DNA of 34,394 nucleotides, from positions 1 to 34,394 of IMG/VR virus record IMGVR_UViG_3300024232_000046. One strand, 5' to 3'. The notes beneath the pieces are model-generated. The model had not been told where the DNA came from, searched no databases, and worked only from the letters and a program-made list of their open reading frames with translations. Of the stretch, positions 1,765-26,467 are shown one piece after another. Every line of letters begins with the position of its first letter. The stretch's first letter is position 1. Made by a program: the position numbers and the translations under genes. The DNA comes from a virus. Its lineage: Duplodnaviria; Caudoviricetes.

Positions 1765-1773
1765 TGCCATAAT
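1765..1773 (+). promoter_or_regulatory. Possible extended -10 promoter (TGc-CATAAT) for the two plus-strand genes
   Basis: TGCCATAAT in an AT-richer divergent intergenic gap, about 70 bp upstream of ATG 1841. Confidence 0.35.
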
Positions 1774-1840
1774 CGATCGTTCCCACTTCGAGCCGTTCTG
1801 ACGCATCCGCAACACTTCCCGGCAGGAGGCCGGCCGCCTA

Positions 1841-2083
1841 ATGTCGAAAAACGTCTTATTTTTGCTCGGCATGTGCGCGTCGATCGCGGTCGCCATTGCG
1901 CCAAATGCGAAGGAATTTGATCACCCGTGGGATCATATTCTGAGCTTGGGAGGCCTCGCCGGAACGGCGATCACTGGGTATCTCTCACAGAAACCGCGCC
2001 GGGAATGGTCCGACGAACGGCGCCAGGAACACCGTGATCAACTGGACCTCGATCGCTTGGCCGATGAGGACCCCGAAGCATGA
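1841..2083 (+). CDS. Small membrane protein, holin-like candidate (80 aa)
   Basis: Two hydrophobic segments and a highly charged C-terminal tail. GGAGG upstream. ATGA overlap with the next gene. Confidence 0.55.
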   Translation: MSKNVLFLLGMCASIAVAIAPNAKEFDHPWDHILSLGGLAGTAITGYLSQKPRREWSDERRQEHRDQLDLDRLADEDPEA

Positions 2084-2562
2084 AAGTCCTACTCCTGATC
2101 CTCCTGATCGCCGCGCCCGCCGGCGCCGGCGAGCGCACCCCGTTTTTGTGGACCCCTCCGCATCGACACACCGCCAACGCGATTAGTTGGGGCACGGCGA
2201 TCGGATCGGTCGCCCTCGATACGGTCCGATCGTTCAAGTCAGAGCACCGAAAAACCGCCTTGCTCGAGCAAACCTGCGGACTCGGCGTCGCCGGCCTTGC
2301 GATGCGGACCACGAAACACTTTGTCAGCCGGACGCGGCCGGACGGATCCGATAATCGATCCTTTTACTCCGGGCATACGACGTACAGCGCCGTGAGCGCC
2401 CGCACCGGATACGGGTTTGGGTTTTCCGTGATCCTGTCGATTGATACCGCGTTTTTCCGTCAGGCCGCGGGCAAACACTTTGCCTCAGATACGATCGTCG
2501 GCGCCCTCGCCGGCGTCGGCTCGGAGGCCCTCTGCCGCGCGATCATCCCCGGCGACCGCTAA
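2080..2562 (+). CDS. PAP2-family phosphatase with N-terminal signal/TM segment (160 aa)
   Basis: All three PAP2 motifs are present: KHFVSRTRP (KX6RP), FYSGH (PSGH variant) and RQAAGKHFASD (RX5HX3D). Confidence 0.85.
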   Translation: MKVLLLILLIAAPAGAGERTPFLWTPPHRHTANAISWGTAIGSVALDTVRSFKSEHRKTALLEQTCGLGVAGLAMRTTKHFVSRTRPDGSDNRSFYSGHTTYSAVSARTGYGFGFSVILSIDTAFFRQAAGKHFASDTIVGALAGVGSEALCRAIIPGDR

Positions 2563-2695
2563 CGGCACCACGATCGCACTGTCCGGGGATTCGTACGGCA
2601 GGACGTACCCGGCGCCCCGTGGGTTTCCCTCCGCATCGGCCGGCAGCCAGAGCACGCCATTACCGCAATACAGAAGACTCATTCAGGATGCCCGT

Positions 2696-2902
2696 CTATT
2701 CCCGGCGATCGATCATGGCGGCGTACGACTTCAACAGGAGGCGCGCGGTACTCGAGACAGACCCGCGGCGCCGCGCGGCGAGCGACTCGATCCGCGCCTG
2801 TTCCCGCGCGGAGATCCAGACCGTGATCGGTAGCAGCGGATCGCGGGACTTCGGCCGGCCGCGCCGCCGCGGCGTGAGGACCTCGAGCGTCGGATCTCCC
2901 AT
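2696..2902 (-). CDS. Small DNA-binding protein, RGRP motif plus ribbon-helix-helix-like region (68 aa)
   Basis: RRGRPK followed by a strand-helix-helix pattern (ITVWIS-AREQARIESLAARR-SVSSTARLLL). Abuts the upstream ORF. Confidence 0.55.
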   Translation of the reverse strand: MGDPTLEVLTPRRRGRPKSRDPLLPITVWISAREQARIESLAARRRGSVSSTARLLLKSYAAMIDRRE

Positions 2903-3127
2903 TCACGTCCCCTTTCGACCTGTTCCGCGACAGGCCGCGCAGCCGTCCGGATCCGCGGCGCCCTGCTGACCGCCGGCCCAGGCCCAGGCCTCCTCGAGCG
3001 CCGTCAAGAGATCGGCGACGCGGACCCGCGCCGCGGCGAGCTCCGCGCGTTGCCGATCGACGGTACAGATCCAGCAGATCGCGTCAATCACCCCATGCGG
3101 ACACGCGGCGTTCGTCAGGATCGCCAT
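2903..3127 (-). CDS. Hypothetical Cys-rich protein (74 aa)
   Basis: ORF directly after terL, with CPH, CWIC and CAAC motifs. Confidence 0.55.
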   Translation of the reverse strand: MAILTNAACPHGVIDAICWICTVDRQRAELAAARVRVADLLTALEEAWAWAGGQQGAADPDGCAACRGTGRKGT

Positions 3128-3141
3128 TTTTTGCTCGCCAT

Positions 3142-4887
3142 TTATCGGCCCCCGTAGACGTCGATGAACGGATCGCGCGACTGCGTCCGTTCCCGACGGA
3201 TGATCCCGCCATCGATCCCCATCACGAGCGCGGCGATCCCGTCGATCTTCTCCGGCGATCGTTCCTTTGCGAGCCGGAGCTCCCCCTTCGTCCCCTCGAT
3301 CGTCACGGTGTTACTTGCCATCCAGGACAGGATCGGATCGCCGCCGTGACACAGATTCGCCGTATGGATCAACGTGCCGAGGCGCCGGATCGCTTCATTC
3401 ATAGCAAACCCCTGTCGCATCCCGATCATCAAGATCCCCTCGCCCGTGAGGATTTGCGCGGTTTCGGTCGCGTACGCCGTATCGTAAAAGATGGACTCGA
3501 GGCCCTCCGCCGCGACGTCGGCCCGGATGTCGACGCGCACCCGTTCATAGTCGGTCGCCGCGCCCTCCGTCACCGTCAGGAGGCCGGACCGCCGCCAGGC
3601 ATCATACGGTCGCGCCGGGAACCGCTTGAGCGCGTCCGCCGGCGTGTAATAGCGAAAGCGGACCGCGACCCGTCCATCGGCGAGGACCCACAGGCGGCCC
3701 CAGGCCGTCAGATCGTTATTCAGCCCGAAGTCCAGACAACCAAACGCCGGCGCCCCGAGGAGCTCTGAGGCCGGCGGGAATGGGCGACAGGCCGCCCATG
3801 CACCCATATCGATCGCCCGCGCGGATCCTTGCGTCCAGACACAGAAATTGAACCGCAGGACGTCGGAGATCGCCGTCGGCATTCCGATCGCTTTTTGCAC
3901 CCGTTGCCGGACGTACTCCCACGGGAGGCTGACCCCAAGATTTGGATTCGCTTTCAGCCAATGCGGCCCTTCGGTTTGCCAGTCATCGCAGGCCGGACAC
4001 TCGTCAGAAGGAAACCATCGGCCCTTCGCCGCGCAAGCCGTACAGGGATCGAGGCCGCAGATAAACGCGAACCACGACTCATTCTCGATCGTGCCGTCGA
4101 GGACCTTGCGCGAGTAATCGTGTTGGTACCAGCAGACGGATGTCCGATCGAATCCGGAATTCGTCGTTTTCACGATCAAGGCATTCCGGTTGCCCTTCGT
4201 GCCGGCCGTGACTTTGTTGACGACGTCGGCCGTCGGATGTTCGTGAACTTCGTCAATCAACGCCCCGTGCACGCGCTTCCCGTCGAGGCCGCGTTTTTCA
4301 CTCGAGATCGGTTTGAGGATCCCACCTTCGCCCGGCACGATCAATTCATGTGCACGGTACCCGTCGGCCCCGAAGAATTCCCGGAGCTCCGGCGAGGCGT
4401 CGACCATTTTGCGGACGTCGGCCCAGGCCAGATTTGCCTGTTCCCGCGTCACGGCCGCGAGGTAATTCTGCGATCCGGGTTGCCCGTCGGCGACGAGCAT
4501 ATAGATCATCATCCCGGCGCCGAGCGGCGTTTTCCCGGACCCCTTCGCCGTTTCGATGTAGGCCTCGCGAAAGCGCCTGAATCCGGCCGCGGTATACCAA
4601 CCGAACAGGGATCCGACGATGAACGCTTGCCACGGCGCGAGGACGAACGGCCGCGGATTGCTCGAGGAGGCCGCCGCGGCGTCGCCGGCATCGGTGTTTT
4701 CTGGCAGGTACAGGATCTCCGCGAAGAATGCGATCGCCCGTTCCGCCCTATCAACGTCCCATACTAGACCCCGAACAGAGGCCGTCCGGACGTCCTCGAG
4801 ATGTCGGCCACAGGCCGCCCGGACCAGGCCGCCAGCCACAATCGACCCCGCTATGACCCGACGCGCGTAGTCGGTCGCCTGATCCAT
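3142..4887 (-). CDS. terL: Terminase large subunit (581 aa)
   Basis: LAPWQAF, Walker A AKGSGKT, Walker B ALIDEVHE, WLKANPNLG and C-terminal KIDGIAALVM. Confidence 0.97.
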   Translation of the reverse strand: MDQATDYARRVIAGSIVAGGLVRAACGRHLEDVRTASVRGLVWDVDRAERAIAFFAEILYLPENTDAGDAAAASSSNPRPFVLAPWQAFIVGSLFGWYTAAGFRRFREAYIETAKGSGKTPLGAGMMIYMLVADGQPGSQNYLAAVTREQANLAWADVRKMVDASPELREFFGADGYRAHELIVPGEGGILKPISSEKRGLDGKRVHGALIDEVHEHPTADVVNKVTAGTKGNRNALIVKTTNSGFDRTSVCWYQHDYSRKVLDGTIENESWFAFICGLDPCTACAAKGRWFPSDECPACDDWQTEGPHWLKANPNLGVSLPWEYVRQRVQKAIGMPTAISDVLRFNFCVWTQGSARAIDMGAWAACRPFPPASELLGAPAFGCLDFGLNNDLTAWGRLWVLADGRVAVRFRYYTPADALKRFPARPYDAWRRSGLLTVTEGAATDYERVRVDIRADVAAEGLESIFYDTAYATETAQILTGEGILMIGMRQGFAMNEAIRRLGTLIHTANLCHGGDPILSWMASNTVTIEGTKGELRLAKERSPEKIDGIAALVMGIDGGIIRRERTQSRDPFIDVYGGR

Positions 4888-4894
4888 CGGCGCG

Positions 4895-5029
4895 TCAGAC
4901 GAACTCAGCGACCGCCAACAGGATCACCGCCAGCGTCAGCAGCGGGAGCGGAGGGACGTACACCGGGATCAGACTTAGGATCGCCAGGAACAGCGCGAGG
5001 AGGACACAGGCCTTGCGTTCTCGAGTCAT
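4895..5029 (-). CDS. 44-aa membrane microprotein between terS and terL
   Basis: Manual translation: MTRERKACVLLALFLAILSLIPVYVPPLPLLTLAVILLAVAEFV*. ATGA overlap with the terS stop and fills the gap. Below the ORF-track size cutoff. Confidence 0.65.
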   Translation of the reverse strand: MTRERKACVLLALFLAILSLIPVYVPPLPLLTLAVILLAVAEFV

Positions 5030-5451
5030 CTGAACCTACCTAACTTAGAGGCCGGCAGAGTTTCGACGGCGCCGGCGCGTTGCGGCATCGGGCGCCCATT
5101 CGGGCTCAGCAGAAAACGGAGCTCGAATGCGTCAAGCTGTTTCAGGAGGCCGCGATGATTGGACCCGCCGCGGCCCGAGCTCTTTCCTTCGTGCCGCTCG
5201 AGTACCACGATCTGACAGTAGCGCGCAAACGCCGCGACGGACGCGGCATCGAGGGTCCCAAACGCGATCGCGTGCGGCGCCCGTTCGTCCCAAATCGCCC
5301 GTTCCTCCGGATCGAGCGTCGCCGGGATCGTGATCTCCGCCGGCGGCGCGAGGAGCGCGGAGGCCGGCGGGATCGACGGATGGAGCAGGACGATTCCGGT
5401 TTTGCTCCGAGGCTTCCTGCCGGCCCCAGGACGCCGACCGCCGCGCGCCAT
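5026..5451 (-). CDS. terS: Terminase small subunit (141 aa)
   Basis: Starts MARGGRRPGAGRKP, contains ERAIWD...FARYCQ...FLLSP. Lies between HNH and terL. G-rich SD before ATG 5451. Confidence 0.85.
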   Translation of the reverse strand: MARGGRRPGAGRKPRSKTGIVLLHPSIPPASALLAPPAEITIPATLDPEERAIWDERAPHAIAFGTLDAASVAAFARYCQIVVLERHEGKSSGRGGSNHRGLLKQLDAFELRFLLSPNGRPMPQRAGAVETLPASKLGRFR

Positions 5452-6656: not shown

Positions 6657-9035
6657 CTATCCGGTGATGATGATCGGTCCGCTCACCGGACGGATCCGGA
6701 CCGTATACGGCCCTTTTTGATAGGTTCTCAGCGTCGCGCCGTGTTCGTCTATCCGGACATACGCCGACGGTCCGAGCATGTCCGCCGGGAACGCCTGCAG
6801 ACCCTGAAAAAAATTCGTGCAACAGGCTTGTTCGTCACCGGAGGGTAGCTGGCCCGTTTTTCCGCCTTCGTAGTGGAAGATGGCGCCGGCGCCGAGCAGC
6901 CCACAGGCCGCGCCATAGGCGAGATAATCCTCCGCGCGGTGAATCGTGGTCCCCGTACTCGGATCGGTTTGCCCGTCCGGCGCCTCTGTGGGTTTGATCG
7001 GTTCCCCGGCAATCCAGGGGACCGGACACGCCGGCTCTGCGGGATAGGACGGTCCGCCGCCGACCTGATACTCGTGCAGATCATGCACCTTGCGCGGCCA
7101 CTCGAGATCGCGCGGCGTGTGCGCGTCACCAAATGAACCAAACCACTGCGCCGAATCGGCGTATTCGCCGGATGTAAACAGCAGGCCGGAGGCCTCACAC
7201 GCGGACTTGAGCGCCCGCGTGTCGATGTGCTTGTTGATCTGCGGTTCGTTCCCGATCTCGATCAGGACCGACTCGAGGCCGGCCGCGCCGAGCTCCCGGA
7301 CGAGTGTCTGTGCCCACGCGATCCGCGCCGGATCGTCATCCGTTAGCAGCGTCAGATACGTAGTGAGGCCCCAAGATCTGAGCGTTTCGATCCCGGCGAT
7401 CGTCTGATCCACACTCGGCGAATTCCAACCGCCGGCGATTGGATGCCCGATCGGCAGGTAATCCCAACAGCGGACCAGATTCGCGAACTTCGATCGAAAC
7501 GTCCAGAACAGCGGATCCAGGTTGCGCCCGTCCGCGAGACTCCGCAGGACGTTAAACCCGGAAAACCCCATCACCCGTACGGCCGCATTCGTAACGTCCC
7601 GAAACAGCCAGCGATCGACATGCCAGCGGGACACCGGGCCGCCGGGATCCGTCACCGCGATCGGCGTGAACGACTCCCAGGCGTCGGCGATCGGTTGATT
7701 GGCGAGGATCCGGCCGTCATCGTGCGCCGACATAAACCGGCGCATCCAGGCCGCTTCAAAGCGCCACACATTGACGCCGTTCTGAACGGCCTTTGTTTGA
7801 ATGAATTCTTCCCACTCGCCGATGGACCCGCGATCGCATTTCAGCCGGCCGTCGGGTTCTGCCGCGACAAACGCGCCGGCGGCCCGGAGGCCGACGCGGC
7901 CCGGCGTCGAGCTCGGGATGATCTCAAACGCCGCGCCCGGCCGCCCTTCGTGCAGAAACCGATCGGCGCCGATCATGACCTCACCGCCGTGGACGGTTGC
8001 CAGCCGGTAATACGTCGAGGCCGGGATCGGCGGGATCGGATCGATCGCCGCGGTCGCCGTGACCTGACGGATCCGCCCGGTTTCATGCGTCCCGGCCGCA
8101 TTCCCGCCGCGCGCCTTCACAAACGCGATTTGTGCGGACGCGAAATGGTATGTGTGATCCGGATCGGTCCCAGGATTGTGCGCCGCGACCGTCCACGGCC
8201 CGGCCGTCGACGGCCCGATCAACCACTCGATCCACTCGAGCGGACCCCCTCCGGATTCGTTGGCATAGACGCAAGTCACGTCGAACGGAACCACACCCGT
8301 GACCGGGAATGTCGGCGAGGCGATCGTAAACTGCGGAGGCGCGATCGCCGGCGGATCGATCGCGGGCTGAAATTCCGGGAGCGTCGCGATCTCCTCGAGC
8401 GCGAGGAGGAATGTCCGCACCAACTGCAGCGGATAATGCGTCACCAGGACCGCGAGGCCGCGGCCCTCCGTCCAGGCCGCGCGGATGAAATCCACTTCGC
8501 CGTCATCGAGCACGTACCGACGGTTTTGGAAAACCACGTGCACGCCGGACTCATGATCCTGTCCGATGAGCACCAGGCCTGCCGGCGTCTCTATGGGCGT
8601 GTACTTGTGCAACAGGCGACCGTCCGGCACCGTCGCGATCGCGAGCGTTGCCTCGCCGAGCACCGGCCGACCGGCCGCATCCAGGCAGCGATAGCCGTTG
8701 ACGGTTTGATCGGCCGCCGGTCGGATGATGTGCACGAGGTTCCCGGCATCGTAGATCACCGGCGAGGCCCCATGCGCCGGCCCCGTCGGCGACCAGGCCC
8801 CGCCGGCCCATTCAAACGATCCGCCGTTTTGCGCTTGTCCGGCGATCCGGACGTCCCCGGCCGGCGTCAGCCGAGGCCATCGGAGCACGTCGGGCGCGTC
8901 CGTGATCGCGACCCTCGCCCCCGTGCGCGCGTCGATCCGCTCGAGCCCCCGCGATCCATACAGGTTCACGATCCCTGTCTGATCGCCACTGCGGAGATCG
9001 CCCTCTGCCGCTCCCGGGTATTCGTGTCGAATCAT
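6657..9035 (-). CDS. Modular glycoside-hydrolase-like protein: beta-rich N-terminus, PKD/Ig-like, fascin/beta-trefoil-like, GH5-like (clan GH-A) TIM barrel (792 aa)
   Basis: Repeats FVAAEPDGRL..DR..IGEWEEF and FMSAHDDGRILAN...DAWESF. Catalytic-type motifs EIGNEP and WIAGEP. Confidence 0.65.
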   Translation of the reverse strand: MIRHEYPGAAEGDLRSGDQTGIVNLYGSRGLERIDARTGARVAITDAPDVLRWPRLTPAGDVRIAGQAQNGGSFEWAGGAWSPTGPAHGASPVIYDAGNLVHIIRPAADQTVNGYRCLDAAGRPVLGEATLAIATVPDGRLLHKYTPIETPAGLVLIGQDHESGVHVVFQNRRYVLDDGEVDFIRAAWTEGRGLAVLVTHYPLQLVRTFLLALEEIATLPEFQPAIDPPAIAPPQFTIASPTFPVTGVVPFDVTCVYANESGGGPLEWIEWLIGPSTAGPWTVAAHNPGTDPDHTYHFASAQIAFVKARGGNAAGTHETGRIRQVTATAAIDPIPPIPASTYYRLATVHGGEVMIGADRFLHEGRPGAAFEIIPSSTPGRVGLRAAGAFVAAEPDGRLKCDRGSIGEWEEFIQTKAVQNGVNVWRFEAAWMRRFMSAHDDGRILANQPIADAWESFTPIAVTDPGGPVSRWHVDRWLFRDVTNAAVRVMGFSGFNVLRSLADGRNLDPLFWTFRSKFANLVRCWDYLPIGHPIAGGWNSPSVDQTIAGIETLRSWGLTTYLTLLTDDDPARIAWAQTLVRELGAAGLESVLIEIGNEPQINKHIDTRALKSACEASGLLFTSGEYADSAQWFGSFGDAHTPRDLEWPRKVHDLHEYQVGGGPSYPAEPACPVPWIAGEPIKPTEAPDGQTDPSTGTTIHRAEDYLAYGAACGLLGAGAIFHYEGGKTGQLPSGDEQACCTNFFQGLQAFPADMLGPSAYVRIDEHGATLRTYQKGPYTVRIRPVSGPIIITG

Positions 9036-9223
9036 GCGGACCTCCTCACGATCAGTCCAGAGTCACGATTCCCGATCCGCAGACAGATCGCGCAGTCAGG
9101 TCCTGGACAGACATGGGGGAACGTCGATTGCTCCACTGATAGCGGCTGGCGCGCCAGTTCCGCGTCTGCGCGCCGACACTCGTCTAGCCATTCCAGACGC
9201 CGCGCCCTCGAGGCCGGCGTCAT
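9032..9223 (-). CDS. Hypothetical Cys-rich protein (63 aa)
   Basis: MTPASRARR...HVCPGPDCAIC. ATGA overlaps at both ends. Confidence 0.65.
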   Translation of the reverse strand: MTPASRARRLEWLDECRRADAELARQPLSVEQSTFPHVCPGPDCAICLRIGNRDSGLIVRRSA

Positions 9224-9480
9224 GCGGACCGCCGGCGTTCGAGACGGATCCTCTCGAGCTCCGCGCGGATGAGCGCGAGTTGCTGATCGGCGATTCGCCG
9301 ATGATGCAGATTGTTGGACGGACTCGGGACATAGACGCGCGCCGGACGGAGGCGCGCCCGTCTCGAGGCATCGGCCGTGCGACAGGCCGGCCCGCAGTAG
9401 GCCCGATCCGCGAGGTGTGAGGCATAGGCCGCCGTCACGGGGACCGTGCAGCCCGGCCGGAGACAGGGTTTCGTCCACAT
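9220..9480 (-). CDS. Hypothetical zinc-finger protein (86 aa)
   Basis: SD AGGGGGG, then MWTKPCLRPGC...YCGPAC and a basic helical C-terminus. Confidence 0.7.
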   Translation of the reverse strand: MWTKPCLRPGCTVPVTAAYASHLADRAYCGPACRTADASRRARLRPARVYVPSPSNNLHHRRIADQQLALIRAELERIRLERRRSA

Positions 9481-9540
9481 AGCGCCCCCCTTGTACCTGA
9501 TCACCCTAAGAGCCGCTTAGAAGGCAGACCCGGATCCGGA

Positions 9541-9760
9541 TCTTGAAATAGAGAGTACATACGTACTAGTACTAGTAGGCGCGCGGTGTATCGCAATCGG
9601 ATATATACCACCCGTAGTGGTCGAGTCAGATTGTGCAACAGGTTAGCCGATCGTGTCCTGTGGAAAAGTCCCCAAAAACTGTGGAAAAGTCCCCCGCGAT
9701 CTGTGGAAAAGTCCCCCGGAATCGGCCTATCCCTGTGGACGGATCTGTGGAAAACCGATT
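9541..9760. promoter_or_regulatory. Putative replication origin with DnaA boxes and a DnaA-trio-like unwinding element
   Basis: Minus-strand TTTTCCACA at 9659, 9680, 9702 and 9746, with degenerate boxes at 9632 and 9734. GC cluster 9578-9586, TAC-TAG-TAC-TAG-TAG at 9564-9578, and an AT-rich tract at 9541-9563. Confidence 0.7.
9658..9717. repeat. Three iteron-like direct repeats, CTGTGGAAAAGTCCCC, with a 21-22 bp period
   Basis: Copies start at 9658, 9679 and 9701. Confidence 0.95.
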
Positions 9761-9768
9761 TTTCCCGA

Positions 9769-10153
9769 TTAATGATTCGCACGGCGAAATCCTGGGATCT
9801 GCAACAGCGTCTCGATCGGTGTCTCTTAGGGAACCGCAGTACCGCGCCCGCCTTGACCCGATGAGCGTCGCACGGTAGCCAGCCGAGGAGTTTTGTCGGC
9901 TGTGATGGCGACGGTGGGGGCAAACTCCATCACGGCGCAGAACATCACGGACATCAACGCGGCGATTGTCGCCATCGCGGCGGCGGTCACGGCGGCGAAT
10001 GCGCCAGAGCCAGTCCTGCGAGGGTCCCCCCGGGTTCGTCACGGGGACGAACTTCGGGGGGACTCTGTTCCCTTGCCGGTCTACGTAGACCTTTCTGGCA
10101 CGGGTGGACAATTCCGCGGGACAACAGCACCTGACTTCGACCTCGATCAGCAT
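9769..10153 (-). pseudogene. Probable fragmented small phage gene (three pieces)
   Basis: Pieces: MLIEVEVRCCC (10153-10121, SD-led), QPTKLLGWLPCDAHRVKAGAVLRFP (9902-9828) and ETPIETLLQIPGFRRANH* (9825-9769). They are separated by a 218-bp insert and a frame change. The joining rests on my recollection of a phage family and is not verified. Confidence 0.4.
10013..10122 (+). ncRNA. Candidate structured RNA or ssDNA element (three-way junction)
   Basis: P1 is 10013-10020/10115-10122, P2 is a hairpin at 10021-10066, and P3 is a hairpin at 10067-10109 containing the 14-bp palindrome GGTCTACGTAGACC. Several non-Watson-Crick pairs are G-U on the + strand. Confidence 0.5.
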
Positions 10154-10335
10154 GAGCGGATCCCCTCGATCGCCGCGGCCATCCGGCCGGCGTGATACCG
10201 CGTCAAAAAGACCCACTCACAGGCCCGGCAGCGCCAATGCGTCCGCGGCGTCGCGTGTCGCTCGAGCGCCTTGCGCCGGGACCCGTTGAGCGGTCGCCGA
10301 CAGTCCCGACAGGCCGGGAGGACCGCGGCCGTCAT
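10147..10335 (-). CDS. Small zinc-ribbon protein (62 aa)
   Basis: CRDC...CRAC motifs and an ATGA-coupled start. Confidence 0.65.
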   Translation of the reverse strand: MTAAVLPACRDCRRPLNGSRRKALERHATPRTHWRCRACEWVFLTRYHAGRMAAAIEGIRSC

Positions 10336-10550
10336 GCGCGGATCGCCTCGAGGACGCGATACCCCAGGCGGCGCCAGGCCTCGGCCGGTTTCCGCTCGAT
10401 CCGGCCGCTCGGTTGAATCTCTGCCGTCGACGGCGACGTGATCTCGAGCTGTCCGCGAAAATAGAAGGCCTCGGCGTACCAGGTGATCCCGAAAATACGG
10501 ACGGCCTCCGGCGCGTAAATCATCGGCCGCTCAATCACTTTGTATTCCAT
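10332..10550 (-). CDS. Hypothetical protein (72 aa)
   Basis: Tightly packed between neighbouring genes, with protein-like composition. Confidence 0.65.
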   Translation of the reverse strand: MEYKVIERPMIYAPEAVRIFGITWYAEAFYFRGQLEITSPSTAEIQPSGRIERKPAEAWRRLGYRVLEAIRA

Positions 10551-11066
10551 TCAGCGGCCCCGTACTGGTTCCGCGTCGACGATCGGACCGGCCCCCGCGG
10601 CGAGGAGGCGATCGGCGGCCGGCATTTGTCCCGTTACATAGATCCGATCGACCTCCGGCCCGATGTACTGCGCGACCGTTTGCTGATTCGGGAGGAGGAC
10701 ATGCGCGAGGAATTCCTCTTCGAACGTCGCGATCCCGCTTTCGACGGCCTCGAGTTTCGCTTTGATTACCAGGAGCAGCGCTCGCCAGCGTGTCCGCTCC
10801 TCCTGTTCGATCACTTTCGCGACGCCGGAGGCCGTTCGCTGGAGGTACGAATTCTTGATCCGCTTGTGTTTTGGATCGTTCGGATCCGGGAGGCCGATCT
10901 CGAATTTCACGATCCGATTGTGCGCCTGAAACTGGACGGTGGCGAGATGCGCCTCATGGTCTACGCCGGCCATGAATTTGACGCATTTGTGCCGCGCGAG
11001 TAACCGCTCAATTTCGGCCCGCGACTTCTCGACCGGTACGGACGTATTGGAGGCGTACGCCATCAT
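10551..11066 (-). CDS. Conserved phage hypothetical protein (~171 aa)
   Basis: MAYASNTSVPVEKSRAEIERLL...WRALLLVIKAKLEAVESGIATFEEEFL resembles a common phage family. Start is coupled to the upstream stop. Confidence 0.8.
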   Translation of the reverse strand: MMAYASNTSVPVEKSRAEIERLLARHKCVKFMAGVDHEAHLATVQFQAHNRIVKFEIGLPDPNDPKHKRIKNSYLQRTASGVAKVIEQEERTRWRALLLVIKAKLEAVESGIATFEEEFLAHVLLPNQQTVAQYIGPEVDRIYVTGQMPAADRLLAAGAGPIVDAEPVRGR

Positions 11067-11260
11067 CGGCCCGGCCGTTTCTTCGGCGACACAGGCCGTT
11101 GTCGCAGCGTGACGATCGGCAGTTGCCGCTCGAGCTCCGCGGACAGCTTGACGAGCGTTTCCGCATCGAGGCCGTTGATCAGCGCGGCGATCACGTCGGC
11201 CGGCGGCCCAGAGATTGACACCGTCAGTTTTAAGGGATCGGTTTTGGTGCGTTTCGCCAT
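11063..11260 (-). CDS. Hypothetical protein (65 aa)
   Basis: MAKRTKTDPLKLTVSISG..., with an ATGA overlap to the downstream gene. Confidence 0.65.
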   Translation of the reverse strand: MAKRTKTDPLKLTVSISGPPADVIAALINGLDAETLVKLSAELERQLPIVTLRQRPVSPKKRPGR

Positions 11261-11475
11261 TGGTTGACCTTTGCACAAAATGCCGGGCCATAGGTCGGCG
11301 CCGAGGATTTCACGAGGGACGTTCCGGGATCTCCGGTTTGCAACTCACGCCGATCCGCTGACGCACCAGACACGGCACGCTCGGATCTCCCGTCTCTCTC
11401 GCCGTTGCCCTATGCTCTCGCGCGGCGACTGCCGCCCCCGCGCGTGTCCTCCACTAGACGAACCCGGCAGACAGA

Positions 11476-11667
11476 TCAGCCGCGCGATCCATCCGTTCGT
11501 CGCCAGGCGGCCGCAAACGCCACGGCCGCCCGTCGCGCCTGATCCGCCGCGATCGCCACGTCCGTAAACGCGAACGTCAGTTTGTCCCCGATCGCTGATA
11601 GGCGACGCGCGATCACCCGTTGTCGGAGCATGTGTTGCCGTTTGGCTTTGATCTCATCTGTCCGCAT
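11476..11667 (-). CDS. Hypothetical protein (63 aa)
   Basis: AAAGGA SD-like sequence upstream. Basic and helical. Confidence 0.6.
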   Translation of the reverse strand: MRTDEIKAKRQHMLRQRVIARRLSAIGDKLTFAFTDVAIAADQARRAAVAFAAAWRRTDGSRG

Positions 11668-11688
11668 GGTGTCCGATCCTTTCGTTGA

Positions 11689-11907
11689 TCAGCCGTGCGC
11701 CCTTTCCGCCATTCGCCGGATCGCCGTCCGGCATTGATCACACTCGACCCATCGATCGAGCTCCCCGGACCGCATCGCGCGCCGCGCGTCCGCCGTGGTG
11801 ACGTCTCGAGCCGTGATCGCCGCGCCGCAGGCCGTGCGACCGGCAGCGCCGCGTGATCCATTGATCCGCCGGCCGGCCCGCACAAACCCGATCCGTAGAT
11901 GGCCCAT
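11689..11907 (-). CDS. Hypothetical protein, possible Zn site (72 aa)
   Basis: GGAG SD, with an H...TACG...CDQC pattern. Confidence 0.6.
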   Translation of the reverse strand: MGHLRIGFVRAGRRINGSRGAAGRTACGAAITARDVTTADARRAMRSGELDRWVECDQCRTAIRRMAERAHG

Positions 11908-11940
11908 GGTTCGATCTCCGTGTGCGTCTGATAAGTCCGA

Positions 11941-12339
11941 TTATGTTGGGTTCCGCTGTTGCTTCGCCCGGTAGCGGTGTACCGCGGCCCGATTCCGATC
12001 GGCACACGTCTGACAACATTGCTTGCCCTCGACCCGTTCCGCCCCGCAGCGACAGCGGCCGGCCGCAAACCAGGACGCCCGCGCCCGCCGCTGATCCGTG
12101 AAGTACTCCGCCGACCGATCCCGCTCATATTGAAACTGACAGCGCCGACAGAGGATCGCCCGCGGCCCGCTGATACTGCGCCGCCCTAACACGTCGCGAT
12201 GATTCCGAGGGAGCGTCCGCCGACAGTCGCCGCGGCAGGTAAACAGATCCGGCGCGCCCGGTTTGTCGAACTCCCGGAGTAACGCCGTGTGCAGCTCGGC
12301 GTCCACAAATCGGTTGACGTCGAAATAATCCGATCTCAC
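11941..12339 (-). CDS. Cys/Arg-rich zinc-finger protein (132 aa)
   Basis: CRGDC, CRRC, CRCG and CCQTC motifs. GTGA overlap with the upstream gene. Confidence 0.7.
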   Translation of the reverse strand: MRSDYFDVNRFVDAELHTALLREFDKPGAPDLFTCRGDCRRTLPRNHRDVLGRRSISGPRAILCRRCQFQYERDRSAEYFTDQRRARASWFAAGRCRCGAERVEGKQCCQTCADRNRAAVHRYRAKQQRNPT

Positions 12340-12704
12340 CGGCGGCCCTTGCGGATCTCCGTGATCGTGATCCCGTACTGCGCTTCCACGAGTTTCTTTT
12401 TCAGCCGATAGAGGGGCGTGATCATGCCTTTGACGTCCTCAACTGTCAGGATGCCATCCGTCCCGTCCCGATAGCGAAAATCAGCGATATAGGCCGCGAC
12501 GATCACCCGGCGCCCATGCGGATCGGTGACGCAGATCGGATATGCCGGTTGCCGCTCGAGCTCGAAAATCAGGCCGGCCGACTCGAGCAAACAGAGCTCC
12601 CCGTACCGCGTCGCCTCCGCCTTCGATTGAAATCGGATCCCGCGGGACTCGCCGACTTTGGCACCGAACTTGTGCCGGCCGACGTTTCGCCAGGACCCCA
12701 TCAC
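12336..12704 (-). CDS. DUF1064-family protein (PD-(D/E)XK nuclease-like)
   Basis: HKFGAK...FQSKAEATRY...LERQP...YIADFRY...VEDVKG..TPLYRLKKKL. Confidence 0.88.
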   Translation of the reverse strand: MMGSWRNVGRHKFGAKVGESRGIRFQSKAEATRYGELCLLESAGLIFELERQPAYPICVTDPHGRRVIVAAYIADFRYRDGTDGILTVEDVKGMITPLYRLKKKLVEAQYGITITEIRKGRR

Positions 12705-12738
12705 CCGCCTTCAACTTTCTGGCGGCCCGCAGTCGCCG

Positions 12739-12948
12739 TTACAGTTGTTCTAGTGTCTCGAGCTCGAGCGCGGTCCGGACGAGCTCCCGGACGTTGTCTT
12801 TGAGTGAATCCGACCAGAACGGCCACCACGACGGGAGGCCATCCGGGGACCGATACGGCGCCGCGGCCGTGAGCATGTACACGATCTGCCGTCGGATCCC
12901 ATTGCTCCGTTTGGTCCGACGCGATCGGCAGTCCGTGATCGCGTTCAT
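12739..12948 (-). CDS. Hypothetical protein (69 aa)
   Basis: ATGA overlap with the upstream ORF. Confidence 0.55.
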   Translation of the reverse strand: MNAITDCRSRRTKRSNGIRRQIVYMLTAAAPYRSPDGLPSWWPFWSDSLKDNVRELVRTALELETLEQL

Positions 12949-13124
12949 TTCGCGCCCGCCTTCTCACGCTCGAGCATCGCCTCGAGGCGCCGGCGTGTGT
13001 TGAAAGCCTGGCCGACGTTCCCGCGGATGCGCCGCGCGGCGACGGCCAGGAGGACCGCCAGGAGGCCCAGAACGGCCAGGCTAGCGGCGATCAGGCGTCC
13101 GGCGAGGCTCAGCCCCTCAGCCAC
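12945..13124 (-). CDS. Single-TM membrane microprotein (~59 aa)
   Basis: VAEGLSLAGRLIAASLAVLGLLAVLLAVAARR..., GTG start after GAGG. Confidence 0.5.
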   Translation of the reverse strand: MAEGLSLAGRLIAASLAVLGLLAVLLAVAARRIRGNVGQAFNTRRRLEAMLEREKAGAK

Positions 13125-13225
13125 GGCCGCCTCGGCTGAGCGCCCGCCAGCCGTTCGCCGGCCGTCAGGAGGAAATCGGCCCCGTAGAGGCCGGCCGCGA
13201 TCGCGATCAGAATGTAGATGAGCAT
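13109..13225 (-). CDS. 38-aa membrane microprotein
   Basis: Manual translation: MLIYILIAIAAGLYGADFLLTAGERLAGAQPRRPWLRG*, with GAGGA upstream. Confidence 0.5.
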   Translation of the reverse strand: MLIYILIAIAAGLYGADFLLTAGERLAGAQPRRPWLRG

Positions 13226-13458
13226 TCGTCCTCAAAACGGTATCCGAATTGCCGGAGCGCCGATCCGGTTGGAAGTAATCGGCGTTTGACTTCCACGTCG
13301 CGTGACACCGTGCAGGCCTCGCGCGGAAATGCCCGCTTGGCCCATCGCCGCGCGTGTCGAATACAGCAGTCAGTTTTATGGATCAGTCCGACACTTGGAA
13401 CGTGAACCGCGTACGTGTAGCTGATGCGCGGGTTGCAGGTAATGGGTTGCGCGAACAT
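13207..13458 (-). CDS. Hypothetical protein, probably leaderless first early gene (83 aa)
   Basis: The ATG lies 6 nt after a -10 box and has no SD. Confidence 0.65.
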   Translation of the reverse strand: MFAQPITCNPRISYTYAVHVPSVGLIHKTDCCIRHARRWAKRAFPREACTVSRDVEVKRRLLPTGSALRQFGYRFEDECSSTF

Positions 13459-13464
13459 AGGCCC

Positions 13465-13493
13465 ATCTTAGCCAAGCGGTTTGTTACTGTCAA
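13465..13493 (-). promoter_or_regulatory. Near-consensus sigma70 promoter with operator in the spacer
   Basis: TTGACA-17 bp-TAAGAT. The spacer contains CAAACCGCTTGGC. Confidence 0.8.
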
Positions 13494-13677
13494 CCGCGCA
13501 CCATTTCAGGTGACGGCCGCCATAGCGCGCCGAGGCCGGCATAGCGGCCCCACAGGTGCAGCGCCGGCGGCCGGGCCGTGGTCGCCGGGCGTTCTCGCGC
13601 GCCGCGGCCGCTTTCGCGGGACTCGTGACCCGGCCGCCGAGACGGCCGAGCGCGACCGCGTGAGGATTTTTCGGCAT
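13468..13677 (-). CDS. Small basic nucleic-acid-binding protein of KNPxAVALGRLGG type (69 aa)
   Basis: MPKNPHAVALGRLGGRVTSPAKAAAARENARRPR...CTCG...HLKWC. Confidence 0.75.
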   Translation of the reverse strand: MPKNPHAVALGRLGGRVTSPAKAAAARENARRPRPGRRRCTCGAAMPASARYGGRHLKWCAVDSNKPLG

Positions 13678-13685
13678 CGCCTTGG

Positions 13686-13715
13686 AGTCTAGCAAACCGC
13701 TTGGCCCGTTGTCAG
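13686..13715 (-). promoter_or_regulatory. Second sigma70-like promoter with the same operator inverted
   Basis: CTGACA-18 bp-TAGACT, 8 nt before ATG 13677. The spacer contains GCCAAGCGGTTTG. Confidence 0.65.
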
Positions 13716-13867
13716 CCGGCCGCCGGCCGAAAGGTTTTCGCGCAGACGTTACACAGGATCCACCCGCCCGACAATCGCTCGAGCATCCGATCCGCCGTAC
13801 AGAACGGACAGCGCAGCGCCGGCGCCTCCGTCTCACGCCGCGGCGTCTGGATCGGCCGCGGCGCCAT
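13712..13867 (-). CDS. 51-aa zinc-ribbon microprotein
   Basis: Manual translation: MAPRPIQTPRRETEAPALRCPFCTADRMLERLSGGWILCNVCAKTFRPAAG*. TGATG overlap with the upstream stop. Confidence 0.65.
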   Translation of the reverse strand: MAPRPIQTPRRETEAPALRCPFCTADRMLERLSGGWILCNVCAKTFRPAAG

Positions 13868-15093
13868 CACGGGGACACCAGGAGGACCGCCCGGCCGCCA
13901 CTCGCGCTGAGGCCGTCCGGCGTCCCGATCAGGAGGGAGATCCGCGGAAACATTGATGCCGGCGTCCCGGATGGCGTACTTTCGATCGACCAGGTATCCG
14001 TCGGCGTGATCGGAATGCCCAGGCCGGTAATGTTGCCGGTCGCGCCGGTACTGCTGATCGTCACGGTCGCCGCGGTCGGCGCGCCGTTTTTGCGGAGAGT
14101 AAACGTGTAACTTTTGCCGGCCGCGGGAACCGCGCTTGTCTCAGCGTACAGGGCTGTGACATAGATCGTCGCGAGGAGCGGCCCCGGATACGATCGCGCG
14201 GATTCCGTTGCACTCCAACTGTCGCCCGTCGCGTTGCAATTCGACCGCGGATAGGAATAGCGCGTCCCGGTATTGCTCGGCGCCGTCGCCGTGGTCACAC
14301 TCGCGATCATCCCCTGATCGGCCGTTGTCGGGACAAAGACGATCATTCCGGTATCCCACGTGGATCCGGTGGTACTGGTTGCCGGGCCGTACTGCACGGA
14401 CAGCAGATCGCCGGCCGCGACCGCGAGGGAAAACGTACTGTTCCCCGATCGCGTGCCAGAATTGATCGTCACCGTGGTGTTCGTGGTCCCGCCGGTCCCG
14501 TCCTGTTTGACGCCGTTCAGGACGAGGCTGTATTTGAACGATCCCCCGCCGGTCGCATTGGTCCGCGTCACGCACCGCATGGCGGTTACGGTCCCCGGCG
14601 AGCTGACGGTGTGCCGCGTACCATAGGTGCCCGCCGGTTCTGAACTTGTTCCGGAGATCACGCCGTTATCCGGCGAACTCAAGATCAGTTCCGACGCGAA
14701 TTCGTGGATATTCTCGCCGGCCGTCGTTGGGACGAACTCCATCACGCTCCGGAAATCAGCGGCCGCCGGCGTCCCGCTCACCGTGAGCGCGATCCGGATC
14801 GTGTCGCCGGCGGTGTAACTCACGCTGTTTGTCGGATCGGTCCCCTCCGTCGCCGTCCCGCTGATCGTGATCGCGAGCGCCGTATTCGCGTTGTTTTTCT
14901 GGAGTGTGAACGTGCGGGAATTCCCGACACCCGGCGCCGTCGCGAGCACCACTTTCCAATTCCGCATGTCGCCGGCCGTCGGCATTTCCGGCGAATCCGC
15001 GGCGTTCGCGAGCGACAGTGACAGGCCCCGGACCGCCGACACGTTGACGCCGGACCCCGACACCCCATGCACAAAAATCTGTTGAACGCTCAC
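13867..15093 (-). CDS. Tail fibre/spike-associated beta-rich protein (408 aa)
   Basis: Thr/Ser/Gly-rich with three related modules (e.g. RTFTLQKN and YTFTLRKN). Coupled to the fibre gene. Confidence 0.7.
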   Translation of the reverse strand: MSVQQIFVHGVSGSGVNVSAVRGLSLSLANAADSPEMPTAGDMRNWKVVLATAPGVGNSRTFTLQKNNANTALAITISGTATEGTDPTNSVSYTAGDTIRIALTVSGTPAAADFRSVMEFVPTTAGENIHEFASELILSSPDNGVISGTSSEPAGTYGTRHTVSSPGTVTAMRCVTRTNATGGGSFKYSLVLNGVKQDGTGGTTNTTVTINSGTRSGNSTFSLAVAAGDLLSVQYGPATSTTGSTWDTGMIVFVPTTADQGMIASVTTATAPSNTGTRYSYPRSNCNATGDSWSATESARSYPGPLLATIYVTALYAETSAVPAAGKSYTFTLRKNGAPTAATVTISSTGATGNITGLGIPITPTDTWSIESTPSGTPASMFPRISLLIGTPDGLSASGGRAVLLVSP

Positions 15094-18000
15094 CCTTCGT
15101 CCACGGTGATCTCGATCGTGACGCGCTTTAGGGACGTGACACTATCGACCTTGAAGGCGAGGACGTCACCGGCCGTGACGGACGTCGTCCAGCCGGTTAA
15201 CGTCGAATCCTCACTCTTGATTGCCGAGCTGATCGTCGGTTTCGCGGACGCCGTGATCGTGTCGGCGACCGTCGGCGCGTAATTGCTATATGTGTCCTTC
15301 CAAACGTCGATCACGATCGATCCGGACGTCACGGAGGGATCCGAGGACAGGAGACGTACTTTAGTAATCGTGCCGGTCGCCGGGACACTGACGAACCCTG
15401 CGATCCCGGTCGCGATCACCGCCACGCCGTCGCCGATGATCATCCCGATCACGCGCTTGAGTGTCGACGCGCTGTAGACGCCGGAGGCCGCGTGTACGTA
15501 GCCCGTGCCTGTCGCGCGCTTGACGAGTTTCCCCGTCGTACTGTCGAACAGGACGATCTCTGCGTCGACCGCCGAGGACGGCCCGACGACGTCCCCCACG
15601 GCCGGCGCCGCGATCGTCAGCGTCGATCCGGCGCCTCCATCCGTCAGTGTGATCCCGGTGCCGGCCGTGAGGACCCGCTCCGCTGACAGCGTCGCATCGG
15701 TGCCGAGCGTCAGATAGGAGGCCCCCGTCGGAGCGCCGCCGCCGCCGCCGGAGGACGCGATCGTCAGCGTCGATCCGGCGCCGCCGTCCGTGAGTGTGAT
15801 GTTGCTTCCGGCCGTGAGGACCCGTTCCGACGTGAGCTCCGCATGGGTAGCGAGCACGACGTATTGCGGCGTGTTGGGCGCCGCGGCGAGGTTTCCGCGC
15901 GCCGTCGCCGCGGCCGCCACGTCCGACAGATTGAGCGATCGCCGCAAATACCGTGCATCCCCTTGCGCCTCCGTGATACCGGATCCGCCGCTCGAGCTTG
16001 ATCCCCCGGCCTGAAAACTGACGTCATCGATATAGAAACTGAACGCGCCGCCGTTCCCGACGCCGGCGATCCGTACTTGGTTGATCGTGGTCCCAACCGG
16101 GACGGCAAAACTCCCGATCGGGATCGCGACCTGCTGATAGACGCCCGTCACGCTCGAATCAAAGCCGAGAAATCCCGTCACGATCGAGACGAGCGATCCT
16201 TTCAGGACGCCGCCCGAATAGAGGCCGACGCGCAGGATCCGATTGTTGCCCCAGGCCGCGAGCGATCGAATGTAGAGGACAAGCGACGTCAACGAGGACG
16301 GATCCATAGACCCGGCGCCGATCTGCCCTTGCGCATAGGCGCCATTCGTGACAGTGGTTCCCGCGATCGCCTTTGTCCCGGTCCGCGGCGCCGTGGTGGA
16401 CGCGAGACTGAACCCCGATCCCGATGTCGACCAGTCCCACTCCCCGGATCCACTCCCGAGGTTTTCGGCGTAGAGGACAGTGGCCGTCACACTGGCGGCG
16501 CTCGAGGCCGCCGGGACCAGTACGATCCCGAGTTTGACTTGTGTCGCCGGATCCGTGTCCGGTTCACTCGGCGTCGCCGCCGGCGTCCCGGTGACGACCA
16601 CGACGGCGCCGGCGGTATCTACGGCGATCACGTCGATCCGATCGAGCGTCGCATCCGCCGCCGTCAGAGTCACGATTTGTTCCGGCGCGCTGTAGAGCAG
16701 TCCGCCGATCGCATAGGTCGCCGCACTGACCCGAAACGTGTAGGCAGAGATCCACGCGATCTGTCCGCCAGAGATCAGGAACGTGCCTTGCGCTTGCGCG
16801 CCGCCAGGGACGATCGCCGCGAGCGTCTCGAGGACATACGCCTCCGACGCGACCCGTTCCCCATTCACGAGCATGTGCCCATGCACGTGAAACGTGTTCG
16901 CGTCACCGTCCGTGTGATCCTCGCCGTCGAGGCCGAAACTGATCGCGAGCGGCGCCGTGACGTCCGTATAGGCGCCGGCGATCATCGATCCAAGAATCGC
17001 CCGCGGCCCTTCCGCGATCGCGAGATACAAGATCGCATCGGCGACTCCGGACACACTCGAGAATGCGATCGTGGCATCCGTCGACGTGACGGCCGACACG
17101 GTGGCTTGGAGCTCCACCGATCCGGAACTGGCGGCCCGTGTCTCGAGGACGAGATCGGTATAGGTCGCCCGCCGATACACGGAGGGATTTGCGGCATCCA
17201 CACCGCCGATCCAGATCCCTCCGCTGTCCGACCCGGACCCGCCGCCATCCGTCCAGGCGCCGAAGGCCAGGCCCATATCGGCCTTATTCGCGCTGGCGGA
17301 CCCTTGCAAGGTTTGCAGGATGATCCCGCGCGCCTGAAATCCCGGCGTGATCGTCACGTTGCCCGGTGACGTCGGCGCCGCCAGGGTCCCGAGCGCGAAC
17401 CGCACGCCGGCGAGCGCGAGAATGTGTTGGACGGGTTGATGTGTCAGTGTGCCGGCGTCGCGCGTGATCGTGAACCCGTTCCCGGACGCCGCCGTGATCG
17501 AGGCGCCCATAAGCTCCGTGCCGCCCGACAAGTTGGCGAGGCGCACCGACGAGACGCGATCGGTATGCTGCCCGCGGTAATTGTCCGCGGCGCCGCCGGT
17601 ACCCCGTCCCAGGGTCCAGCCACAGATATTGTCGGAGGCATTCGAGAATCCGAACCCGTGAATGGATCCGAACGGCGCGCCGAAGCTGTAATCCCCGGTG
17701 CCGAATTCGTCCGCGGCGCCGCCCATCACGATAAACGCCGTGGGTGCAAACCCTAACCCCGTGACATCGATCGTTCCGCCGCTCGAGACGTTGATTTTTT
17801 GCTGGACAAATCGCGCCTCGATATCGCCGCCGAGGACCAGCGCATGATAGAGCGCCGCGGATCCGTCGTTCGTGATCCAGTTGATCGAGAATCCGTCGGC
17901 CGTGAACGCGACGAACTGGCCCTCCACAGTCGCCGCCGGATCGGCGCCGGACGTCGCGCCACTTTTCCATGCGATCCGGTTCGTCCGTTCCCCTTGCGCG

Positions 18001-26465: not shown

Positions 26466-26467
26466 CG

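What the first reader, a model, noticed from the sequence alone, without database searches (positions are those of the whole stretch)
9541..9760. Bacterial oriC mimic in a phage with no recognisable replication genes
Seen: four co-oriented TTTTCCACA 9-mers at 9659, 9680, 9702 and 9746. The spacings of 21, 22 and 44 bp put them in helical phase. Degenerate boxes lie at 9632 (TGTTGCACA) and 9734 (CCGTCCACA). Downstream on the same strand comes GATACAC-CGCGCGCC-TACTAGTACTAGTAC and an AT-rich tract. Known: TTTTCCACA fits the DnaA-box consensus TTWTNCACA, and the order box, GC cluster, TAG-type trios, AT-rich tract is the basal unwinding system described for Bacillus subtilis oriC. Inference: this apparently complete genome shows no Rep, helicase, loader, primase, polymerase or integrase, so it may replicate as a minichromosome driven entirely by host DnaA, possibly titrating DnaA away from the host origin.
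Basis: partly seen in the sequence, partly recalled or inferred. Interest (0 to 1): 0.85.

Follow-up and report, generated by a model that had tools for sequence, protein, structure and literature searches.

The report
Phage origin without its own initiator
A complete 34-kb soil phage genome with no detectable replication-starting gene carries a gene-free cluster of binding sites for the host's DnaA protein beside its easiest-to-melt DNA, so it likely lets the host protein start its copying, like a tiny bacterial chromosome.

Summary
The genome's only four perfect DnaA boxes lie within 96 bp (0.29 expected) and point at five DnaA-trio-like triplets in the genome's least stable duplex. The genome is a 34,261-bp circle whose junction three other contigs cross. 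No initiator, helicase, polymerase or integrase was detected. Natural variants delete most of the longer overlapping reading frame and the gene beside it yet keep the element, and 15 variable sites miss the boxes and trios. It is not a textbook basal unwinding system: the trios lie 80 bp from the nearest good box (rule: 16 or less). Among 79 viral loci sharing one early gene, all 4 box clusters sit in or just behind a Rep-type gene; three show the same order (AT-rich tract, CG run, boxes). Best reading (0.55): a phage origin of that kind that lost its Rep half and is likely fired by host DnaA alone. Closest known: the Rep-less plasmid replicons pLS20 and pTE15. Host, DnaA binding and replication are untested. 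This scan noted similar Rep-less DnaA origins on other DNA before (e1-9509081, e1-7995467).

The parts
9746..9754 (-). Perfect DnaA box TTTTCCACA (most distal)
   Evidence: no listed variant falls in it
9734..9742 (-). Weak DnaA-box-like site CCGTCCACA (3 mismatches), 3 bp behind the distal box
   Evidence: one low-depth contig carries a change towards the consensus
9701..9716 (-). 16-bp repeat copy 1, holding the perfect box 9702-9710
9679..9694 (-). 16-bp repeat copy 2, holding the perfect box 9680-9688
9658..9673 (-). 16-bp repeat copy 3, holding the perfect box 9659-9667 (nearest good box, 80 bp from the trios)
9632..9640 (-). Weak box-like site TGTTGCACA, not conserved
   Evidence: changed at 9633 in runs X6 and X11
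9579..9585 (-). CG run directly before the trios
9563..9578 (.). Five DnaA-trio-like triplets (3'-GAT GAT CAT GAT CAT-5' opposite the box strand); 9564-9577 is a perfect palindrome
   Evidence: no listed variant falls in it
9539..9562 (.). A+T-rich tract; with the trios it forms the least stable 40-bp duplex of the genome (predicted unwinding element)
9528..9543 (+). GGATCC-type repeat, like the Pro-Asp-coding repeat inside Rep genes of L289 and L338
   Evidence: resemblance of layout; whole-region DNA alignment not significant
9471..9479 (+). 2-mismatch box TCGTCCACA pointing at the trios from the far side (83 bp)
   Evidence: single weak site, may be chance
9220..9480 (-). 86-aa cysteine-rich protein with a conserved C-terminal helix; flanks the element; small family; candidate late activator or helper
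9785..10166 (+). 382-bp dispensable segment holding most of a 96-aa + strand ORF (9905-10195); absent from natural variants
10147..10335 (-). 62-aa cysteine-rich protein; in variants its stop lies about 20 bp before the distal box

Best explanation
The gene-free stretch 9505-9775 is likely this phage's replication origin, and it is likely opened by the host's DnaA with no phage-made initiator. Shown: four perfect phased boxes, a CG run, five trios and the genome's least stable duplex, in a closed 34,261-bp genome where no Rep, helicase or loader was detected. Inferred: DnaA-ATP binds the phased boxes and is brought to the trio tract 80 bp away by a bend or loop, as distal boxes are thought to act in B. 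subtilis incC and E. coli oriC. It then melts 9539-9578 and, being the host's own initiator, recruits the host helicase-loading route. The palindromic trios would let either strand be gripped. Inferred origin of the element: the unwinding-plus-box half of a Rep-embedded, DnaA-assisted phage origin whose Rep gene and iterons were lost while the boxes went from two to four.
For: Box cluster far above chance and unique in the genome. Least stable 30-, 40- and 60-bp windows of the circle start at 9546, 9539 and 9518. The frames over the boxes on the gene strand score as non-coding (-0.29 and -0.35 per codon). Circle closed: 126-bp end overlap, crossed by L006, L137 and L139; G001 runs collinear over 5680-29360 and G002 over the rest to 5377. 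No replication family in 113 frames against Pfam, in 262 of 439 frames of 45 aa or more against PHROGs, or in 30 proteins against NCBIfam. PHROGs did recognise 6 of 8 hand-picked Rep-like loci. 14 Rep profiles or seeds against all 687 six-frame segments gave a best E of 0.2. L139 and contigs in runs X19, X20, X12 and X6 lack 9785-10166 but keep the element. 0 of 15 variable sites in 9505-9775 fall in boxes or trios (p 0.037; boxes alone p 0.11; features chosen after looking). Of 79 viral loci sharing the gene at 10551-11066, 4 have two or more perfect boxes within 150 bp, and all 4 lie in or just behind a Rep-type ORF. L266, L289 and L042 show the same order AT-rich/GATC tract, CG run, boxes; L283 partly. 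TTTTCCACA is the commonest perfect box around dnaA in 3 of 3 Vicinamibacterales loci. DnaA alone opens the P1 and F origins (PMC5043065, passages). pLS20 and pTE15 replicate without a rep gene and carry DnaA boxes (PMC8557374, PMC9743546, passages).
Against: No box with 2 or fewer mismatches to TTATCCACA lies within 16 bp of the CTA trios, and in B. subtilis the proximal boxes are essential (PMC6669920, passages). No IHF-consensus site (consensus recalled) with up to 2 mismatches in 9400-9900, so the bending factor is unexplained. The searches miss some initiators: 2 of 8 control loci had no PHROGs hit. About 15 small early ORFs have no family. The 16-bp repeats extend 6-7 bp beyond the box, as iterons would. 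CG run plus TAGTAC repeats also occur in viral contigs with no perfect box (L129, L130), so the trios may be a generic melting motif. DNA alignment to Rep-linked origins of like GC is not clearly above shuffles (about 2-3 SD at best), so common descent is not shown. No distant relative with this same Rep-less layout was found; all carriers are about 95-100% alike. CheckV rates the record 55% complete and linear. The host is unknown. How a cos-type phage would make many copies from a DnaA-limited origin is unexplained.
Confidence: 0.55

Rival explanations
1. It is the origin, but DnaA works with a small phage protein that the searches cannot name (for example the 86-aa or 62-aa cysteine-rich neighbours), which binds the 16-bp repeats or bends the 80-bp gap.
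For: Repeats are longer than a DnaA box and the extension carries no listed variant. Both flanking genes are kept in the variants. The 86-aa family is small and occurs on contigs of 34,935 and 34,212 bp. The spacing rule fails, so a helper would be useful.
Against: The 86-aa model is a small cysteine-rich domain plus helices with no fold match. The 171-aa protein models as alpha-beta3-alpha with no initiator match, co-occurs with separate Rep genes in 6 loci (L264-L267, L283, L289) and is skipped in X19 and X20. All other unannotated early ORFs are under about 135 aa.
Confidence: 0.18
2. It is a transcription-driven, host-only origin (c2 or R-loop type): early transcription running into the A+T tract opens it, and the DnaA boxes only assist or regulate.
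For: Lactococcal Ceduovirus origins support plasmid replication without phage proteins (PMC7150918, passages). The early genes are read on the minus strand through the boxes towards the tract.
Against: No sigma-70-like promoter in 9300-10300 (0 found). Four perfect phased boxes are more than such origins are reported to need; the word DnaA does not occur in PMC7150918.
Confidence: 0.1
3. The phage borrows a Rep made by a co-infecting or resident relative; the element is a Rep-dependent origin used in trans.
For: The layout matches Rep-embedded origins of other soil phage contigs.
Against: No iteron-like repeats on the side where those phages carry them. The genome encodes a full head, tail and packaging set.
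Confidence: 0.08
4. The boxes are a DnaA sink or a control site for the late genes that follow, and the real origin lies elsewhere.
For: T5-like phages carry conserved DnaA boxes away from their mapped origins (10.1101/866236, passages). DnaA boxes on plasmids titrate DnaA (PMC5835720, passages). The element sits at the early/late boundary.
Against: Only four boxes, tied to the least stable duplex. 4 of 4 clusters in loci sharing the early gene are Rep-linked. No other origin candidate or replication gene was found.
Confidence: 0.06
5. The contig lost a replication module in assembly.
For: CheckV 55%, classed linear. The supporting assemblies may come from related samples.
Against: The junction is crossed by three other contigs, two of them divergent variants; the early region is collinear in G001. 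The only internal repeat found is 100 bp at 82% identity. An identical 86-aa protein is on record on a 34,551-bp contig.
Confidence: 0.03

Closest known systems
Rep-less theta plasmid replicons oripLS20 (Bacillus; PMC8557374) and pTE15 (L. reuteri; PMC9743546)
   Same: No typical rep gene; DnaA boxes and an A+T-rich region; host DnaA proposed as initiator
   Different: Those are plasmids whose replication region was shown to work. This is a tailed phage, the element is about 270 bp rather than 1.1-1.3 kb, there is no DNA similarity, and it has four perfect phased boxes against one consensus box in pLS20.
Basal unwinding system of bacterial oriC (PMC8287927, PMC6669920)
   Same: Boxes pointing at a GC run, then five trios starting with 3'-GAT-5', then an A+T tract; phased distal boxes
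   Different: No proximal box: 80 bp against 16 bp or less. Not beside dnaA or dnaN. The trio tract is palindromic.
DnaA-assisted iteron origins (P1, F, RK2, pSC101; PMC5043065) and Rep-embedded phage origins seen here (L266, L283, L289, L042)
   Same: A+T tract flanked by DnaA boxes; same order of elements as L266, L289 and L042
   Different: No Rep gene or separate iterons; more boxes; the module faces against the direction of the phage's genes.
Ceduovirus (c2-type) origins (PMC7150918)
   Same: Non-coding phage origin that needs no phage protein
   Different: Those hold two early promoters and DnaA is not mentioned; here there are perfect DnaA boxes and no promoter match.
DnaA boxes of the T5 injection-stop region (bioRxiv 10.1101/866236)
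   Same: Conserved DnaA-box cluster in a phage
   Different: T5 boxes come in pairs 3 bp apart inside inverted repeats in the terminal repeat, and T5 encodes its own replication genes.

Membership tests
Basal unwinding system (BUS) | DnaA box with 2 or fewer mismatches within 16 bp of the trios | tested here: not met
   Nearest good box 80 bp; 9632 site 53 bp with 3 mismatches. The same rule passes on L255, L256 and L258.
Basal unwinding system (BUS) | Three or more NAN trios, GAT proximal | tested here: met
   Five trios, three of them GAT; 0.46% of shuffles
Basal unwinding system (BUS) | Short GC-rich spacer before the trios, boxes pointing towards them | tested here: met
   CGCGCGC at 9579-9585; all four boxes point at it
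Basal unwinding system (BUS) | DnaA-dependent strand separation needing boxes and trios | not testable with these tools
   bench assay
Rep/iteron origin (lambdoid or P1 type) | Element-encoded initiator gene | tested here: inconclusive
   None detected, but PHROGs missed 2 of 8 control loci
Rep/iteron origin (lambdoid or P1 type) | Iterons distinct from DnaA boxes | tested here: inconclusive
   The only repeat family is 16 bp with a DnaA box as its core
Rep/iteron origin (lambdoid or P1 type) | A+T-rich unwinding element beside the sites | tested here: met
pLS20/pTE15-type Rep-less replicon | No rep gene, with DnaA boxes and an A+T tract | tested here: met
   within the sensitivity of the searches
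pLS20/pTE15-type Rep-less replicon | Sequence similarity to such a replicon | tested here: not met
   blastn against 72,556 plasmids: two short matches at E 1-3
pLS20/pTE15-type Rep-less replicon | Autonomous replication of the bare fragment | not testable with these tools
   bench assay
c2-type transcription-driven origin | Early promoters within the origin | tested here: inconclusive
   0 sigma-70-like matches; the host's promoter type is unknown
T5 injection-stop boxes | Box pairs 3 bp apart in inverted repeats within a long terminal repeat | tested here: not met
   Perfect boxes are 21-44 bp apart in direct repeats, mid-genome

The most novel reading that the evidence does not exclude
A family of 34-kb tailed soil phages has dropped its initiator altogether and replicates as a minichromosome fired by host DnaA alone, through a long-gap, two-sided (palindromic) trio element. 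It is the end point of a series visible in related contigs: full Rep, Rep plus DnaA boxes, DNA-binding half of Rep plus boxes, boxes only.
Probability: 0.4. Interest if true: 0.8.

Novelty: new variant of a known kind. Interest (0 to 1): 0.62.

Why it matters
Tailed phages are generally taken to bring their own initiator or to start by transcription or recombination (recalled). My literature searches found no phage whose origin is fired by host DnaA alone (listings only, open-licence library). If true, this phage's copying is tied to the host's cell-cycle signal, which would suit slow-growing soil hosts and narrow the host range. It also gives a 270-bp natural test of whether DnaA can open trios with no adjacent box, and a lead on how Rep-less replicons such as pLS20 start, which is still open (PMC8557374). 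It would explain some phage genomes that appear to lack replication genes.

Tried and rejected
A cryptic Rep over the boxes: the 140-aa and 175-aa minus-strand frames score as non-coding, are not on record as proteins, and most of the longer one is deleted in variants. The 96-aa plus-strand ORF has no Atlas hit and is dispensable. The 171-aa protein (phrog_17260; 3266 homologues) had no Foldseek match at E 0.001 or less and a best VIA Z of 6.3, a common arrangement. The 132-aa protein has only zinc-ribbon-like leads under 0.9. The 86-aa protein had no fold match. GC skew keeps one sign round the whole circle and does not locate an origin. No Rfam match; the box-to-tract strand folds no better than shuffles (z 0.0). 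No similar DNA among 50,697 phages or 72,556 plasmids; no relative of the 86-aa protein among those phages. Terminase relatives at 55-81% mostly stop short of the early region. Of the two distant ones with 10 kb upstream, L160 has a Rep-like ORF, two boxes and an integrase, and L143 has no perfect box. Host not resolved: best terminase matches in species genomes are only 41-45% and span several phyla. Whole records of five metagenome contigs were not held, so their early regions stay unseen. No RNA holder listed. Run X16 gave no contig on 9440-9800.

Full report
OBSERVATION. They are the only perfect TTWTNCACA matches in the window (chance mean 0.29; 0 of 100 shuffles reach 4). Three sit in identical 16-bp repeats 21 and 22 bp apart, and the set lies at 0, 2.0, 4.1 and 8.3 helical turns. 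In the direction the boxes point come a CG run (9579-9585), five triplets CTA CTA GTA CTA GTA (9578 to 9564) and a tract of 67% A+T in a genome of about 65% G+C. The 40 bp from 9539 are the least stable duplex of the genome by nearest-neighbour energy (-44.9 against a mean of -62.4, sd 4.1). Five triplets with three or more CTA arise in 0.46% of 5000 local shuffles. The trio tract is a 14-bp palindrome, and a 2-mismatch box at 9471 points at it from the far side. The two 'degenerate boxes' are weak, and one is broken in a natural variant.

THE GENOME. It is a siphophage with capsid-protease, portal, terminase, HNH, connectors, tail tube, tape measure and a DUF1064 nuclease. IMG/VR classes the record as linear and 55% complete, but its ends overlap by 126 bp with 7 extra bases, inside the capsid gene, giving a 34,261-bp circle. 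L006, L137 (97.9% alike) and L139 cross that junction. G001 is collinear over 5680-29360 and G002 over 15329-34387 and 1-5377. These assemblies may come from related samples. Contigs holding the stretch come from soil metagenomes (laid runs X6, X11, X12, X19, X20).

NO INITIATOR FOUND. Pfam saw no replication family in 113 frames, which included all 79 six-frame segments of 45 aa or more in 9000-14000. PHROGs saw none in 262 of the 439 such segments of the window; the 177 left out are alternative frames over structural genes. NCBIfam saw none in 30 proteins. As a control, PHROGs named 6 of 8 hand-picked Rep-like loci and missed L160 and L017, so the negative is good but not absolute. Fourteen profiles or single seeds built from those Rep domains gave a best E of 0.2 over all 687 segments of 25 aa or more. 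The largest unnamed early protein (171 aa) models as alpha-beta3-alpha with no initiator match and occurs beside separate Rep genes in six other loci. The frames that overlap the boxes on the gene strand look non-coding.

NATURAL VARIANTS. L139 and contigs in runs X19, X20, X12 and X6 join 9784 to about 10167 and so lack 382 bp, which removes the 96-aa plus-strand ORF and most of the 175-aa frame while the element is kept. X19 and X20 also skip 10333-11060 and carry 860 unseen bases at 9226-9245; I could not read those bases. Fifteen variable sites are listed in 9505-9775; none falls in a perfect box or in the trios (p 0.11 for boxes, 0.037 with trios; features chosen after looking; differences near contig ends are not listed by the tool). 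This fits selection but is weak, because the variants are close.

WHAT BOX CLUSTERS MEAN IN OTHER PHAGES. Three phased boxes occur in about 350 stored stretches of the viral collection (estimate from 22 of 64 parts), so a cluster alone is not rare. Among 79 loci that share the 171-aa gene, 4 have two or more perfect boxes within 150 bp, and all 4 are in or just behind an ORF that PHROGs files under replication initiation, primosomal or DnaD-like proteins. Read along the Rep gene, L266, L289 and L042 run: Rep N-terminus, repeats, GATC-rich or A+T-rich tract, CG run, boxes; L283 does so in part and L265 does not. The window's plus strand runs GGATCC repeat, A+T tract with trios, CG run, four boxes, but with no Rep or iterons in front and against the direction of its own genes. 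In L160 and L266 the Rep-like ORF stops before the tract and an unrelated gene follows the boxes, as if DnaA had taken over the C-terminal job. Most other Rep genes examined have no box. DNA alignment to the origins of like GC is at most 2-3 SD above shuffles, so shared descent is an inference from layout.

NOT A TEXTBOOK BUS. The published rule asks for a box with at most 2 mismatches within 16 bp of three or more trios (PMC8287927, methods and first results read). The CTA trios fail it (80 bp), whereas the dnaA-dnaN regions of three Vicinamibacterales genomes pass. In B. subtilis the proximal boxes are essential and distal boxes act in phase through a likely loop (PMC6669920, passages). So the element works, if it works, like the distal part of such an origin with a missing or very weak proximal site. 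TTTTCCACA is the commonest perfect box in those three loci (3 of 3, 5 of 5, 2 of 4), which fits such a host but does not identify it.

MECHANISM. Shown: boxes, phasing, trios, low stability, closed genome, no detected initiator, dispensable overlapping ORFs. Inferred: DnaA-ATP gathers on the phased boxes, reaches the trio tract by a bend, melts 9539-9578 and hands over to the host helicase loader. DnaA alone can open the P1 and F origins (PMC5043065, passages). Confidence 0.55. A small phage helper (0.18), transcription-driven start (0.10), a Rep borrowed in trans (0.08), a sink or control site only (0.06) and misassembly (0.03) remain. Unexplained: no IHF-like site, no repressor, integrase or partition ATPase, and no recombinase to make the concatemers an HNH-type terminase normally cuts (recalled).

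WHAT IS KNOWN. Rep-less replicons with DnaA boxes exist among plasmids: pLS20 and pTE15 (PMC8557374, PMC9743546, passages). Phage origins needing no phage protein exist in Ceduovirus (PMC7150918, passages). DnaA boxes in phages are reported for T5, away from its origins (10.1101/866236, passages), and in an Ori-Finder prediction for a polymerase-encoding Pseudomonas phage (PMC11512268, passages). PMC5835720 was seen as passages. Ten searches (listings) showed no phage started by host DnaA alone; the library omits most subscription papers. Earlier notes of this scan describe two other Rep-less phage-like elements with DnaA origins; I did not check them and they are not independent evidence.

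VERDICT. A real, well-placed candidate origin in a genome that very probably lacks a classical initiator; a new variant of the Rep-less, DnaA-box kind rather than a copy of oriC. Interest 0.62; 0.8 if DnaA-only firing is shown.

Noticed in passing
L160:1485-2400, L266:3685-4420, L289:4622-5300: Rep-like ORFs that end after the N-terminal domain, before or at the repeat tract, followed by two DnaA boxes: possible half-way stages towards a Rep-less origin.
   Followed up: partly
L009-L127, L341-L452: About 350 and 310 stored stretches of the viral collection hold three close DnaA boxes; most of those printed are outside long ORFs and many lie near contig ends.
   Followed up: partly
L017:3873-4286: Four boxes 22/21/21 bp apart plus a CTA-type tract about 30 bp away, inside a 138-aa frame with no PHROGs hit, in a 31.7-kb record rated 97% complete: perhaps another long-gap origin.
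   Followed up: partly
L129:6001-6030, L130:4924-4960: CG run plus TAGTAC repeats with no perfect DnaA box in the locus; in L129 directly before an ORF that looks by eye like a primase zinc-binding domain.
   Followed up: no
window 26788-31246: Block of glycosyltransferase-like, methyltransferase and sialyltransferase-like genes between the head connectors, possibly for virion or DNA decoration.
   Followed up: no
window 10551-11066: phrog_17260, 3266 homologues at E 0.001 or less, highly conserved, models with an alpha-beta3-alpha fold weakly like ribosome hibernation factors, dsRNA-binding domains and T7 gp1.2 (Z 6.3 or less).
   Followed up: partly
window 9220-9480: 86-aa protein with an almost invariant 30-residue C-terminal helix; 15 relatives among 1.84 billion representatives; placed just before the late genes like a late activator.
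   Followed up: partly
window 4895-5029 and 23762-23917 (minus strand): Two short, very hydrophobic ORFs (44 and about 51 aa), one between the terminase genes and one before the tape measure gene.
   Followed up: no
L256:300-330, L258:400-420: The dnaA leader of two Vicinamibacterales genomes contains AAAGTCCCC, also the tail of the phage's 16-bp repeat; there it looks like a GAAA-loop hairpin and may be coincidence.
   Followed up: no
window 15609-15855: 100-bp internal repeat at 82% identity inside the 1043-aa tail protein gene.
   Followed up: no
L349, L352, L361, L375, L381, L395, L406, L407, L413: A family of contigs up to about 43 kb (about 55% G+C) with dense DnaA-box arrays at or near the contig end.
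   Followed up: no
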